Below, piece after piece: positions 12,014 through 14,339 of a DNA stretch of 32,000 nucleotides. Source of the stretch: Candidatus Heimdallarchaeota archaeon. GTDB taxonomy: Archaea > Asgardarchaeota > Heimdallarchaeia > JABLTI01. Within the stretch, counting starts at the first letter, position 1, and each line of letters opens with the position of its first letter. Position numbers and translations under genes: made by a program. The notes under the pieces were generated by a model, which made no database searches, had not been told where the DNA came from, and saw only the letters and a program-made list of their open reading frames with translations. The stretch lies in the NCBI GenBank assembly GCA_030614005.1, contig JAUWKS010000007.1, positions 46,610 to 78,609 on the forward strand, written 5' to 3'.

Positions 12014-13276
12014 TTGTACAAAGTGATAGATATTGGCTTAGAAGCGCTTTTAATAATGGATAAAGCCGGCATACCTTTACTATTTCAAAAACTAGATCCA
12101 AAACGAACAGATATCGAACCTATTTTACTATCTGGTTTTCTAACTGCTGTAAAGGCTTTTTCTATTGAGATAATCGATGATACTATTACAGATTTCCATG
12201 TTGATTATGGGAAAAGATTAATTACAATCCTCTCAGGACACAAGATTGTTTTCGCAGCAATACACAGTCATAAATCAACTGAGAGAATAATCCCTGTTTT
12301 AGCACCTTTATTGAAAGAATTTGAAAGCCAATACTATAAAGAAAACCATATCGGTGAATCAGGTCCATTAGAAAAGTATGAACCATTTAGAGAACGAATA
12401 GCTACTGTAATGGGTATTAACAATCCTTCGTTAGATTGGATCCCATTCTACACTGAAATTGATGAAGCAAAAGTAACTGATGATAGTAAAATAAAGAATT
12501 TCATTGATAATCACTATTCTATTAAGGATATTGTAAACCACTGTAATCTCTCTGAATCAGAAGTATTAAATGAAATATCTAAGTTGTGGGCTATAGGTGC
12601 AATACGATTCCGGAATATTTTAACTCAAAGAGATATTGTCATTTCAACAAGTAAAATTGCAAGCTATTTGCAACCTTCAACAATTGAATGGAAAGAACTC
12701 TATAAGGAATTTCCAAACCTAATAAATATGATTCCCCATATTTTGAATCATCTGGATGGACAAACAACAGTAGGACACATTATAGATGATTTAGATACAG
12801 AAGGAATTGAGAATGTTTATTGGCTTATGGATTATTTATACATCAATGATGCTCTATCTATGCTTTCACCCGAAAAAAGAAGAATTCTAATGGCTAAAGA
12901 AATTTTACAAAAAAGCTTAGAAATTGCTGCTGATATTTATTCTGTCGAGGAAACCATTTGGCACCTTAAATCTGTGTTAAATGAGATACGTTCTCCAGAA
13001 ATAATTTCACAGATAAGACTACTGAAGGAGAACTGGTCCATTGACTATAGTTTTTTGGTATACGAAGGTTTGAGTCCCGAGAAAGTCTTACAATTGTATG
13101 ATATTTGGTTAGAAATTCTTAGAATGTTTATCTTTTCATTGGATGAGAAGAAAAGAAAAAAATATATCGAGTACCTAACTGAAATGCTTGATTTTGATTT
13201 CTTCGAAAAATATCGAAGTGAAGACATGGATGGTTTCGAAGAGTTTGCCTTTTGGTTGGAATTAATATTTATTTGA
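12014..13276 (+). CDS. Longin/roadblock-like N-terminal domain + tandem winged-helix-like repeats + helical C-terminus (NPRL2-like architecture)
   Basis: LLIMDKAGIPLL and ILLSGFLTAVKAFSIE are typical of Asgard longin-like domains. Two repeats: FIDNHYSIKDI..L....V...ISKLWAIGAI and HLDGQTTVGHII....VYWLMDYLYINDAL. TTG start (ATG 12056 is an alternative). Confidence 0.65.
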   Translation: MYKVIDIGLEALLIMDKAGIPLLFQKLDPKRTDIEPILLSGFLTAVKAFSIEIIDDTITDFHVDYGKRLITILSGHKIVFAAIHSHKSTERIIPVLAPLLKEFESQYYKENHIGESGPLEKYEPFRERIATVMGINNPSLDWIPFYTEIDEAKVTDDSKIKNFIDNHYSIKDIVNHCNLSESEVLNEISKLWAIGAIRFRNILTQRDIVISTSKIASYLQPSTIEWKELYKEFPNLINMIPHILNHLDGQTTVGHIIDDLDTEGIENVYWLMDYLYINDALSMLSPEKRRILMAKEILQKSLEIAADIYSVEETIWHLKSVLNEIRSPEIISQIRLLKENWSIDYSFLVYEGLSPEKVLQLYDIWLEILRMFIFSLDEKKRKKYIEYLTEMLDFDFFEKYRSEDMDGFEEFAFWLELIFI

Positions 13277-13290
13277 ATGGAGGAAAAAAA

Positions 13291-14022
13291 ATGAAAATTG
13301 ATCCAGAAAAAGCAATCGAGGTAAAACCAGGCATATGGTGGATTGGTTGGCCCGATTATCAAGCAGGGTTTTCTAATAATCCTTATTTGATAAAAGATGG
13401 AGAAGAAATTGTTATCATTGATCCAGGTTCAAGACTAGATGCTCATTGGAGTATAGTGAAAAGGAAAATTGAATCAATTGTTCCACTTGAAAAAATAACT
13501 ATGGTAATAGCAACTCACCAAGATCCTGATTTGTGTGCTTGTATACCATTCATTGAAGATGCCGTTGGTGTAGATAATTTTGAATTAGTTACTACAGATA
13601 GGACTTCGCTTTTTATGCCCTATTATGACATAAAATCTGAAGTGACTGTTGTTGAAGATGGAGATAAAATGGAAATTGGGGACAGCGGAAGAATTTTAGA
13701 ATTCATTACAAGTCCATATCTACACTTTCCAGGTGCAATGGTTGTTTATGAAACTTTAGAGAAAATTCTCTTCTCTTCAGATATTTTTGGAGCATTTTCA
13801 GTTGATTGGAATTTATATGCCAACGAATACTATCATGAAGCCATAAAATCTTTTGCAGAAACTTACATGTCTGATAAACGACACATAATTAATTTTCTGG
13901 ATAAAATAAAGAATATCGATATTGAATTGATTTGTCCTCAACATGGTTCACTTATTAAAAAAGAGCTAATCCCTAAAATAATTGGTGTCATGAGAAACTT
14001 GGAGGTTGGAATATGGAAATAA
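13291..14022 (+). CDS. Oxygen-binding di-iron protein (ODP), stand-alone metallo-beta-lactamase fold
   Basis: NPYLI, IIDPGS, THQDPDL, YLHFPG, LFSSDIFGA, ICPQHG; no flavodoxin domain; ATG 13291 follows GGAGGA (the ORF-track start at 13252 overlaps the upstream gene). Confidence 0.8.
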   Translation: MKIDPEKAIEVKPGIWWIGWPDYQAGFSNNPYLIKDGEEIVIIDPGSRLDAHWSIVKRKIESIVPLEKITMVIATHQDPDLCACIPFIEDAVGVDNFELVTTDRTSLFMPYYDIKSEVTVVEDGDKMEIGDSGRILEFITSPYLHFPGAMVVYETLEKILFSSDIFGAFSVDWNLYANEYYHEAIKSFAETYMSDKRHIINFLDKIKNIDIELICPQHGSLIKKELIPKIIGVMRNLEVGIWK

Positions 14023-14339
14023 ATCATCAACAGGCTGCAGAGTTCGCTCAATTGTTAATCATGAGGGGTTTGGGTTTATATGGAGATAAAAAAATGGCTA
14101 AAATCTGCGATGATTCCGGGATGGATTGTAGAGTAGGTAGTTCATACGAACTTCCCGATAATGAAAATATCGAAGATTCTTTAAAGAAATTGATGATTAA
14201 TTACTCAAAATTTAACTTACCTGCGAAAATGACTGTACTAGTTCTAGCTAAAAAGTATGGTATGTTAATACCCGAAGAGCTGAAATCTTCTAAGAAAAAG
14301 AAATCAAAGTATAGGCAGAAATTAGAATTTAAGTCCTGA
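14013..14339 (+). CDS. Small helical hypothetical protein, translationally coupled to ODP
   Basis: GGAGG at 14001-14005; ATG overlaps the ODP 3' end by 10 nt; no recognised family. Confidence 0.75.
   Translation: MEINHQQAAEFAQLLIMRGLGLYGDKKMAKICDDSGMDCRVGSSYELPDNENIEDSLKKLMINYSKFNLPAKMTVLVLAKKYGMLIPEELKSSKKKKSKYRQKLEFKS

What the first reader, a model, noticed from the sequence alone, without database searches (positions are those of the whole stretch)
12014..14339. Three-gene unit coupling an O2/Fe di-iron sensor (ODP) to a longin-domain, GATOR1-like regulator
Seen: three co-oriented genes separated by a 14-nt gap and a 10-nt overlap, with strong RBSs before genes 2 and 3, behind one TATA-like element. 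Established: ODP proteins (HQDPD-type MBL fold, no flavodoxin) bind O2/Fe(II) and act as sensor inputs for bacterial chemoreceptors and other signalling outputs; longin domains are platforms that regulate small GTPases. Inference: here the ODP has no chemoreceptor or cyclase beside it and is instead co-transcribed with a longin/winged-helix protein. The unit could be an oxygen- or iron-sensing input to a eukaryote-like small-GTPase circuit. I do not know of a description of this pairing, but cannot search the literature.
Basis: partly seen in the sequence, partly recalled or inferred. Interest (0 to 1): 0.85.

Follow-up and report, generated by a model that had tools for sequence, protein, structure and literature searches.

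The report
Oxygen/iron sensor operon with NPRL2-like protein
An Asgard archaeon carries a conserved three-gene operon that joins a di-iron oxygen/iron sensor and a previously unnoticed small adaptor protein to a relative of the eukaryotic growth regulator NPRL2, suggesting what signal these "eukaryote-like" archaeal proteins respond to.

Summary
The three genes are real and tightly packed, with a 14-nt gap, a 10-nt overlap and GGAGG sites. Gene 1 most likely starts at GTG 12023, not TTG 12014.

- **Gene 2** is a stand-alone ODP (Pfam PF19583, E 2e-50) with the metal-ligand positions kept.
- **Gene 1** is an NPRL2-like protein with a longin domain and winged helices. Its best fold matches are NPRL2/Npr2. 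This family was already reported in Asgard archaea (Liu et al.).
  - It directly follows ODP in all 19 fetched Asgard loci that hold an ODP ortholog.
  - It follows or is fused to gene 1 where ODP is absent.
  - It follows ODP in many bacteria.
  - It is fused to ODP, to ODP-GGDEF-REC proteins, and to a CheB methylesterase.

The trio occurs in 26 of 399 Asgard genomes across three classes, including cultured Lokiarchaeum ossiferum, in two gene orders.

Best reading: ODP is the sensor, gene 3 the receiver/adaptor, and the NPRL2-like protein the output. The link to a small GTPase is not shown. No GTPase gene is a conserved neighbour, no conserved arginine finger is evident, and there is no DEPDC5 homolog.

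I found no paper on this pairing, and the scan had not noted it on other DNA. All functional links rest on genomic context.

The parts
11826..12022 (+). Upstream intergenic spacer, shared with a divergent Fe-S protein gene. It is A+T-rich, has TATA-like strings (e.g. TTTATT at 11953-11958), and has GGAG at 12009-12012.
   Evidence: Sequence read. The promoter assignment is inferred and was not tested.
12023..13276 (+). Gene 1: NPRL2-like protein of 417 aa. It has an N-terminal longin domain (about residues 3-135), two winged-helix units (about 150-280) and a conserved helical C-terminal part ending in an acidic-aromatic motif (the FEEFAFWLE stretch). An alternative TTG start lies at 12014.
   Evidence: model pLDDT 84. 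NPRL2 E 2.7e-4; the top Foldseek PDB hits are GATOR1/SEAC chains of NPRL2 and NPRL3 size; longin Z 12-13; the top six Swiss-Prot models are NPRL2/Npr2. PF24064 HTH_NPRL3 scores over its cut-off in a 61%-identical ortholog.
13279..13283 (+). GGAGG ribosome-binding site, 7 nt before the gene 2 ATG.
13291..14022 (+). Gene 2: stand-alone ODP (oxygen-binding di-iron protein) of 243 aa. It has a metallo-beta-lactamase fold and no flavodoxin domain. H76-Q-D78-P-D80, D164 and H218 are invariant among the 21 aligned sequences. H145 is kept in 20 of the 21; the exception is the divergent G277 sequence.
   Evidence: PF19583, 171.7 bits against a cut-off of 27.2; best solved relative 6qrq, 'Oxygen-binding diiron protein', E 2e-24, with the motifs aligned; invariant columns.
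14001..14005 (+). GGAGG ribosome-binding site inside the end of gene 2, 7 nt before the gene 3 ATG. This suggests translational coupling.
14013..14339 (+). Gene 3: helical protein of 108 aa from an unnamed family. The core of about 90 aa has an invariant Arg18, Gly24, Gly36 and a terminal LP..L motif. A polybasic tail found only in the Asgard members follows (lysine-rich, residues 93-103). It is the proposed ODP receiver/adaptor.
   Evidence: model pLDDT 80; no significant known fold; always beside or fused to gene 1 and/or ODP; bacterial homologs and fusions.
14361..14374 (+). T7-CA-T5 run 22 nt after the gene 3 stop, a plausible archaeal terminator. It overlaps the end of a convergent 90-aa ORF.
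   Evidence: Function is inferred.

Best explanation
The three genes form one operon that encodes a cytoplasmic sensory module.

- The ODP protein binds Fe(II) and O2 at its di-iron site, as established for bacterial ODPs.
- The small helical gene 3 product is ODP's dedicated receiver/adaptor domain.
- The NPRL2-like longin/winged-helix protein is the output that the adaptor docks onto.

Oxygen or iron status would thus change the activity or assembly of the NPRL2-like protein. That protein most likely acts as a regulator or scaffold of a Rag/Arf-type small GTPase encoded elsewhere in the genome.

Shown here: the identity of the three proteins, their conserved linkage, and the natural fusions. 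Inferred: physical binding, the direction of signalling, and the GTPase target.
For: Identity of the parts:
- Gene 2 is an ODP with the metal-ligand positions kept.
- Gene 1 is NPRL2-like by profile, Pfam and fold.

Linkage:
- In 30 loci holding gene 1 orthologs, gene 3 follows gene 1 in 29. The remaining locus is cut by a contig end.
- Of 20 Asgard loci fetched around ODP matches, 19 hold an ortholog of 49-89% identity, and in all 19 gene 3 starts at or within the end of ODP. The 20th is a 38%-identical ODP without gene 3.
- A gene 1 relative is adjacent in 16 of these 19 loci. The other three are cut by contig ends.
- Two gene orders occur, g1-ODP-g3 and ODP-g3-g1, plus one divergent arrangement. 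They span Heimdallarchaeia, Lokiarchaeia (Ca. Lokiarchaeum ossiferum, Ca. Harpocratesius repetitus) and Thorarchaeia.

Fusions:
- Gene 1 fused to gene 3, about 530 aa, in Thorarchaeia.
- ODP fused to gene 3 in a Nitrospirae genome, E 8e-18.
- ODP-g3-GGDEF-REC in Firmicutes.
- Gene 3 fused to a CheB methylesterase, next to ODP, in a Scalinduaceae genome.

Bacterial pairs: about 27 bacterial or non-Asgard loci have a gene 3-like ORF directly after ODP.

Trees: on the gene 1 tree the ODP-free forms are one nested clade with 100/100 support, so the ODP-linked state looks ancestral.

Literature: ODPs are known portable O2/Fe(II) sensors for varied signalling outputs (citing Muok et al. 2019).

Candidate targets: the genome holds at least four strong Gtr1/RagA-like GTPase genes.
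Against: - There is no experimental or predicted-interface evidence for binding.
- No GTPase gene is a conserved neighbour. A Ras-like gene lies within 4 kb in only 3 of 20 loci.
- The loop between strands 4 and 5 of the longin domain is where I place the NPRL2 arginine finger from memory and from fold topology. It has no conserved Arg here. The conserved motif in the loop between strands 1 and 2 is G-x-P, not GP.
- No DEPDC5/Iml1 homolog and no Pfam NPR2 match were found in this 90%-complete genome.
- Many Thorarchaeia keep gene 1 and gene 3 without any stand-alone ODP. Gene 3 therefore has a role that does not need ODP.
- In many bacteria the ODP-g3 pair sits among housekeeping genes with no obvious output gene.
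- The tree root is a midpoint root only.
Confidence: 0.55

Rival explanations
1. The sensor and adaptor are the same, but the output is transcription. The NPRL2-like protein would use its winged helices to bind DNA, acting as an oxygen- or iron-responsive transcription regulator. Its longin domain would serve for dimerisation or for receiving the signal.
For: - Gene 1 carries two winged-helix units.
- It gives weak Pfam hits to DNA-binding HTH families: Sigma70_r4_2, wHTH, DUF4423_like and HVO_A0114.
- Neighbouring Atlas clusters carry HTH_47 and TrmB (a lead only).
- No GTPase gene is a conserved neighbour, and no arginine finger is evident.
- The polybasic tail of gene 3 could bind nucleic acid.
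Against: - The best full-length fold and profile matches are NPRL2/NPRL3, whose winged helices mediate protein contacts and do not bind DNA.
- None of the HTH Pfam hits reaches its cut-off.
- No conserved target operon lies beside the module.
Confidence: 0.2
2. The ODP here is an enzyme rather than a sensor, for example an O2/NO/peroxide scavenger or a hydrolase. Gene 3 would be its accessory subunit, and gene 1 would be linked for a non-signalling reason such as localisation or protection of a complex.
For: - ODP belongs to the metallo-beta-lactamase/flavodiiron superfamily of enzymes.
- Many bacterial ODP-g3 pairs have only housekeeping neighbours.
- The organism comes from anoxic marine or cold-seep sediments, where O2 defence is useful.
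Against: - There is no flavodoxin or other redox-partner domain.
- Close relatives of ODP are fused to GGDEF, histidine kinase, receiver (REC), SpoIIE and cyclase domains, or are followed by sensor-less histidine kinases. Those are signalling contexts.
- Gene 3 itself is fused to CheB methylesterase and to GGDEF-REC proteins.
- The genome has separate flavodiiron proteins for detoxification.
Confidence: 0.12
3. The linkage carries no function. A mobile ODP-g3 cassette of bacterial origin landed next to the NPRL2-like gene, and the arrangement is kept by inertia.
For: - Asgard ODPs group with a bacterial clade that also carries gene 3.
- The distribution is patchy: 3 of 10 other genomes of the same genus have it.
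- An IS605-type fragment lies beside one locus.
Against: - The trio persists across three classes although the gene order was rearranged.
- Gene 1 and ODP sort the lineages into the same broad groups on their trees.
- Gene 3 stays with gene 1, and becomes fused to it, after ODP is lost.
- The overlapping stop and start codons with ribosome-binding sites are conserved.
Confidence: 0.05

Closest known systems
ODP-based sensing in bacteria (T. denticola TDE2498 with receptor TDE2496, T. maritima ODP; Muok et al. 2019, cited)
   Same: A stand-alone di-iron metallo-beta-lactamase-fold protein with the H-x-D-x-D motif. It is encoded next to the signalling protein it serves. ODPs are known to have been recruited to several bacterial and archaeal signalling pathways and to occur fused to signalling domains.
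   Different: The output here is not a chemoreceptor, cyclase or kinase but an NPRL2-like longin/winged-helix protein. A separate adaptor of about 90 aa (gene 3) always accompanies this ODP clade. I found no description of that adaptor. It was found in only 3 of 351 sampled Spirochaetota genomes, so it may be absent from the studied Treponema system.
GATOR1 subunits NPRL2/NPRL3 (eukaryotes; SEACIT Npr2/Npr3 in yeast)
   Same: The domain order is the same: an N-terminal longin domain followed by winged-helix domains. NPRL2 is the best fold match and the best profile match in the PDB. As in eukaryotes, the protein appears to sit downstream of a dedicated small-molecule sensor.
   Different: - Sequence identity is 9-15%.
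- It is not recognised by Pfam NPR2 or NPR3.
- No conserved arginine finger is evident.
- The motif is G-x-P instead of GP.
- There is no DEPDC5/Iml1 partner.
- It has an extra conserved C-terminal helical part.
- Its partners are ODP and gene 3, which have no eukaryotic counterpart that I know of.
Asgard 'NPRL2-like' family of Liu et al. (bioRxiv 10.1101/2020.10.19.343400; also noted in L. ossiferum)
   Same: Most likely the same protein family: a longin domain plus an NPRL2-specific C-terminal domain, common in Thorarchaeia and present in some Lokiarchaeia.
   Different: That work reports fusions of NPRL2-like longin domains with two-component domains. In the text held it does not mention ODP, a metallo-beta-lactamase or the small partner. 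Here the family is also found in Heimdallarchaeia, and its ODP-linked form looks ancestral.
Asgard FLCN/SMCR8-type 'GAP longins' with GP motif and arginine finger (Traffic 2025, PMC12290439)
   Same: Asgard longin-domain proteins proposed to be relatives of eukaryotic longin GAP subunits.
   Different: Those proteins keep both the GP motif and the arginine finger. Gene 1 has G-I-P and no conserved Arg at the expected loop, so GAP chemistry is less likely or works differently.

Membership tests
ODP (Pfam PF19583; oxygen-binding di-iron protein) | Matches the ODP family model above its curated cut-off | tested here: met
   171.7 bits against a cut-off of 27.2, E 2e-50, covering profile positions 2-194 of 194.
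ODP (Pfam PF19583; oxygen-binding di-iron protein) | Metallo-beta-lactamase domain alone, without the flavodoxin domain of flavodiiron proteins | tested here: met
   The protein is 243 aa and ends with the MBL domain. Flavodiiron proteins align only over residues 23-225.
ODP (Pfam PF19583; oxygen-binding di-iron protein) | Metal-ligand positions kept (H-x-D-x-D, then His, Asp, His) | tested here: met
   H76, D78, D80, H145, D164 and H218 align with the same residues of solved ODP 6qrq. H76, D78, D80, D164 and H218 are invariant in the 21 aligned sequences. H145 is kept in 20 of the 21. Which residues bind iron is taken from my knowledge of the family, not from a structure inspected here.
ODP (Pfam PF19583; oxygen-binding di-iron protein) | Reversible binding of Fe(II) and O2 | not testable with these tools
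   Needs purified protein and spectroscopy.
NPRL2/NPRL3 (GATOR1/SEACIT subunits) | N-terminal longin domain | tested here: met
   Model residues 3-135 align to longin domains at Z 12-13, rmsd about 3 A, over about 120 residues.
NPRL2/NPRL3 (GATOR1/SEACIT subunits) | NPRL-type winged-helix C-terminal region after the longin domain | tested here: met
   - The family profile hits human NPRL2 at E 2.7e-4 and yeast Npr2 at 0.015.
- PF24064 HTH_NPRL3 scores 34 bits against a cut-off of 27.2 in a 61%-identical ortholog.
- The top Foldseek PDB matches are GATOR1/SEAC chains of NPRL2 and NPRL3 size over about 340 columns, E 3e-6.
- The top six Swiss-Prot models are NPRL2/Npr2.
NPRL2/NPRL3 (GATOR1/SEACIT subunits) | Recognised by Pfam NPR2 (PF06218) or NPR3 | tested here: not met
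   The window protein gives no hit and the genome gives none. The best is 10.6 bits in a Thorarchaeia ortholog, against a cut-off of 27.5.
NPRL2/NPRL3 (GATOR1/SEACIT subunits) | Catalytic arginine finger and adjacent GP motif in the longin domain (NPRL2 type) | tested here: inconclusive
   - The loop between strands 1 and 2 has a conserved G16-x-P18, not GP.
- The loop between strands 4 and 5 (residues 72-74) has no conserved Arg.
- R65 is conserved in close relatives, but it sits in the turn between strands 3 and 4 and is lost in distant members.
- No residue-level superposition on NPRL2 could be made.
NPRL2/NPRL3 (GATOR1/SEACIT subunits) | Works with a DEPDC5/Iml1 subunit | tested here: inconclusive
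   The own genome (90% complete) has no PF12257 match. The model also matched none of the control genomes, which are all prokaryotes.
NPRL2/NPRL3 (GATOR1/SEACIT subunits) | GAP activity on Rag GTPases | not testable with these tools
   Candidate Gtr1/RagA-like genes exist in the genome but none is linked to the operon.
Gene 3 family (unnamed; proposed ODP receiver/adaptor) | Helical core of about 90 aa with an invariant Arg, two conserved Gly and a terminal LP..L motif. It is encoded directly after ODP or fused to ODP or to an output domain. | tested here: met
   Alignments A2 and A5. Position and fusions. No Pfam or NCBIfam model matches. All database members found are named 'hypothetical protein'.

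The most novel reading that the evidence does not exclude
Gene 3 defines an unrecognised, widespread 'ODP-receiver' domain that plugs the di-iron O2/Fe(II) sensor into interchangeable outputs: CheB methylesterase, GGDEF-REC, and in Asgard archaea an NPRL2-like protein. The Asgard NPRL2-like lineage would then have begun as the output of this oxygen/iron sensor. The eukaryotic logic of 'small-molecule sensor controls GATOR1-type longin regulator' would have a prokaryotic forerunner, one tuned to oxygen and present in cultured Lokiarchaeum ossiferum.
Probability: 0.3. Interest if true: 0.9.

Novelty: new variant of a known kind. Interest (0 to 1): 0.76.

Why it matters
Asgard archaea encode many proteins that look like eukaryotic regulators, but it is rarely known which signals control them. 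This operon gives a concrete, testable input (oxygen or ferrous iron) for the NPRL2-like family. It occurs in Heimdallarchaeia, Thorarchaeia and the cultured Lokiarchaeum ossiferum, so experiments are feasible.

Oxygen handling by Asgard archaea is central to current debates on eukaryogenesis. A dedicated O2/Fe sensor wired to a GATOR1-like component would therefore interest that field.

Separately, the small gene 3 family appears to be an overlooked adaptor of ODP sensors in many bacterial phyla. That would matter for understanding how this sensor class transmits its signal.

Tried and rejected
- **Complex prediction, ODP with gene 3.** No verdict (score 0.05, below the mark). This is not evidence either way.
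- **RNA runs.** No RNA holder was listed for the Harpocratesius locus or for the window, so co-transcription could not be checked. DNA holders are marine-sediment and cold-seep metagenomes.
- **Fold of gene 3.** There was no significant match in the PDB (Foldseek best E 1.5; VIA wide best Z 5.8, tied among generic helical bundles) or in AFDB clusters beyond unnamed relatives. The N-terminal helical subdomain of H-NOX recurs among weak hits. I treat that as a lead only.
- **Atlas feature search.** It returned only unnamed clusters or clusters with HTH families.
- **Longin-only profile against PDB sequences.** No NPRL2 hit, so the arginine finger could not be placed by sequence alignment.
- **Gene 3 in the experimentally studied Treponema ODP system.** I guessed that the gene between TDE2498 and TDE2496 might be gene 3-like. 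The profile found gene 3 in only 3 of 351 sampled Spirochaetota genomes.
- **Muok et al. 2019 (PMC6660769).** The paper is not held, so I could not check whether it mentions the small partner.
- **Conserved extra neighbours.** None was found. Ras-like GTPase genes (3 of 20 loci) and histidine kinase genes (4 of 20) are sporadic.
- **Pfam and NCBIfam for genes 1 and 3.** Nothing scored over a cut-off.
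Full report
**Observation.** The window holds three co-oriented ORFs at 12014/12023-13276, 13291-14022 and 14013-14339.
- Reading the sequence confirms the 14-nt gap with GGAGG at 13279-13283.
- It confirms the 10-nt overlap with GGAGG at 14001-14005.
- A T7-CA-T5 run at 14361-14374 lies just after the last stop.
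- Orthologs of gene 1 are 417 aa.
- The upstream spacer is A+T-rich with several TATA-like strings, so a single promoter element cannot be assigned.

**The organism.** The window is contig C34 of a 3.6-Mb, 90%-complete genome.
- Its closest relatives carry the record title Candidatus Heimdallarchaeota archaeon (isolates CSMAG_879 and HM7_B34).
- Near-identical DNA occurs in marine-sediment and cold-seep metagenomes.

**Gene 2.**
- It matches Pfam ODP at 171.7 bits against a cut-off of 27.2.
- Its best solved relative is the 'oxygen-binding diiron protein' 6qrq (E 2e-24), with the H-Q-D-P-D, His, Asp and His positions aligned.
- In the 21 aligned sequences, H76, D78, D80, D164 and H218 are invariant. 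H145 is kept in all but the divergent G277 sequence.
- There is no flavodoxin domain.
- The literature held describes ODPs as O2/Fe(II) sensors recruited to several bacterial and archaeal signalling pathways. They occur either in operons or as fusions.

**Gene 1.**
- It has no Pfam hit of its own.
- A 61%-identical ortholog passes PF24064, the C-terminal HTH of NPRL3.
- A profile of 29 family members finds human NPRL2 (E 2.7e-4) and yeast Npr2 (E 0.015) as its best PDB sequences.
- The AlphaFold model has pLDDT 84. Residues 3-135 form a longin domain (Z 12-13).
- Its best full-length matches are GATOR1/SEAC chains of NPRL2 and NPRL3 size in the PDB (E 3e-6, about 340 columns).
- In Swiss-Prot models the top six matches are all NPRL2/Npr2, followed by NPRL3.
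- This is very likely the 'NPRL2-like' Asgard family that Liu et al. described, which is also noted for L. ossiferum.

Membership in GATOR1 proper is not established.
- Pfam NPR2 is not matched.
- No DEPDC5/Iml1 homolog was found.
- The loop between strands 1 and 2 carries G-x-P rather than the GP motif of GAP longins.
- The loop between strands 4 and 5 is where I place the NPRL2 arginine finger from fold topology and memory. It has no conserved Arg.

**Gene 3.**
- It has no Pfam or NCBIfam match.
- Its model is a helical bundle without a significant known fold.

Its genomic behaviour is what is informative.
- In 30 loci with gene 1 orthologs, gene 3 directly follows gene 1 or follows an intervening ODP in 29. 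The last locus is cut by a contig end.
- ODP lies between the two genes in only 9 of these 30 loci.
- In Thorarchaeia a paralog of about 530 aa is gene 1 fused to a gene 3 domain.
- A gene 3 profile finds the domain in 81 of 399 Asgard genomes. Wherever I compared coordinates, it lay beside gene 1 or inside it.

**ODP across Asgard archaea.**
- Stand-alone orthologs of 50% identity or more occur in 26 of 399 genomes.
- I fetched 20 loci. In all 19 that hold an ortholog (49-89% identical in alignment A3), gene 3 starts at or within the end of ODP. A gene 1 relative is adjacent in 16, and the other three are cut by contig ends. The 20th locus holds a 38%-identical ODP without gene 3.
- The order is g1-ODP-g3 in several Heimdallarchaeia families, including Ca. 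Heimdallarchaeum aukensis and endolithica, and in several Thorarchaeia genera.
- The order is ODP-g3-g1 in Lokiarchaeia (Ca. Lokiarchaeum ossiferum, Ca. Harpocratesius repetitus), in one Heimdallarchaeia genome and in one Thorarchaeia genome.
- It is divergent in one genome.
- No other gene family recurs in these neighbourhoods. A Ras-like GTPase gene appears in 3 of 20 loci and histidine kinase genes in 4 of 20.

**Beyond Asgard archaea.** I examined the 80 best ODP relatives in one genome per species.
- About 27 bacterial or non-Asgard archaeal loci have a 78-124-aa ORF directly after ODP that matches the Asgard-only gene 3 profile (E 1e-14 to 3e-3). They come from Scalindua, Atribacteria, Nitrospinota, Campylobacterota, Aminicenantes, Nitrospirota, Spirochaetia, Bacillota and Methanobacteriota.
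- These ORFs share the same Arg/Gly/LP..L pattern.
- A broader gene 3 profile, built only from stand-alone members, detects the domain in three fusion types:
  - directly after the ODP domain in a 355-aa Nitrospirae protein (E 8e-18);
  - between ODP and GGDEF-REC in Firmicutes proteins of about 670 aa (best E 3.5e-7);
  - as the N-terminal domain of a CheB methylesterase encoded next to ODP in a Scalinduaceae genome, where it takes the place of the usual receiver domain.
- Stand-alone ODPs that lack gene 3 are instead followed by sensor-less HisKA-HATPase kinases.
- Against 5.8 billion proteins, all members found are 'hypothetical protein' with no Pfam domain.
- Bacterial gene 3 proteins end at the LP..L motif. 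The Asgard ones add a tail, which is polybasic with aromatic residues in the ODP-linked genes.

**Trees.**
- On a gene 1 tree the ODP-free g1-g3 forms and the fused forms make one clade with 100/100 support. That clade is nested among ODP-linked sequences, so a single loss of ODP inside Thorarchaeia is the simplest history. Two rows carried wrong labels in that run, one because of a truncated locus and one because of an over-extended ORF start.
- On an ODP tree the Asgard sequences form two clades in an unresolved node with a bacterial clade that also carries gene 3. A single origin is not excluded.
- Both trees sort the Asgard lineages into the same broad groups.
- Both are midpoint-rooted, so the polarity is an inference.

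**Interpretation.** The pattern matches that of a sensor, a receiver/adaptor and exchangeable outputs.
- Shown: the identities of the three proteins, the conserved linkage, and the fusions.
- Inferred: that ODP binds gene 3, that gene 3 docks on gene 1, and that signal flows in that direction.
- What the NPRL2-like protein then does is open. By analogy to NPRL2, and given the four or more Gtr1/RagA-like genes in the genome, I favour regulation or scaffolding of a small GTPase.
- A DNA-binding role of the winged helices is a serious rival.
- An enzymatic role for ODP is unlikely, and so is linkage without function. The signalling fusions argue against the first. The persistence of the trio through gene-order changes argues against the second.

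**Novelty.** ODP sensors and Asgard NPRL2-like proteins are both published.
- I found no paper that links them. Full-text searches for Asgard with di-iron and longin returned nothing, and Liu et al. do not mention a lactamase or di-iron protein.
- I found no description of gene 3.
- I could not read Muok et al. 2019, so I cannot exclude that the small partner is mentioned there.
- The earlier notes of this scan concern only ODP-cyclase fusions in other genomes.

**Verdict.** This is a new variant of ODP-based sensing, with a new adaptor domain and a eukaryote-like output. All functional links rest on genomic context.

Noticed in passing
L078:1995-2888 (Scalinduaceae MAG, contig CBDCUS010000014.1): A 298-aa protein has a gene 3-like domain (residues 1-94) where CheB normally has its receiver domain. 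A CheB methylesterase domain follows (114-292). The gene lies directly upstream of an ODP gene.
   Followed up: partly
L088, L101, L102, L112, L119, L127, L131, L133 (candidate-phyla bacteria, WOR-1, Margulisiibacteriota, Thermoplasmatales): Stand-alone ODP genes without a gene 3 partner are each followed by a homologous histidine kinase. Several of these kinases are only HisKA-HATPase with no sensor domain, which suggests ODP is their sensor.
   Followed up: partly
L046 (G322:C6:14700-30400, Thorarchaeia): Two modules lie about 3 kb apart on one contig: ODP-g3-g1, then a second gene 1 copy split into two ORFs (167 and 282 aa) followed by its own gene 3.
   Followed up: no
window 8971-11825 (- strand): Two tandem Fe-S proteins of 333 and 362 aa carry the 4Fe-4S double-cluster domain typical of reductive dehalogenase/QueG-like enzymes, followed by a HEAT-repeat protein. 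They are divergently transcribed from the operon. They are not conserved beside the module in other genomes.
   Followed up: partly
window 14367-14639 (- strand): A convergent 90-aa ORF with no family match. Its end overlaps the T-rich stretch after gene 3.
   Followed up: no
window 14795-17548 (+): A 917-aa LVIVD-repeat protein with an fn3 domain and a C-terminal hydrophobic anchor followed by basic residues. It is probably a surface protein.
   Followed up: no
window 17726-29712 (+): An Fe-S protein gene is followed by a complex I-like (Nuo/Mrp-type) gene row. The row includes subunits of the NuoA, B, C, D, H, I, K and L/M types.
   Followed up: partly
window 1588-6149 (+): A 964-aa FtsX-type permease ORF overlaps by about 120 nt the start of a double ABC ATPase ORF. 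The listed start of the second ORF is probably too far upstream.
   Followed up: no
L041:1744-2232 (G014, 2.2-kb contig): An IS605 OrfB-type HTH fragment lies directly beside an ODP-g3 pair in a Heimdallarchaeia MAG. This is a hint that the cassette can sit next to mobile DNA.
   Followed up: no
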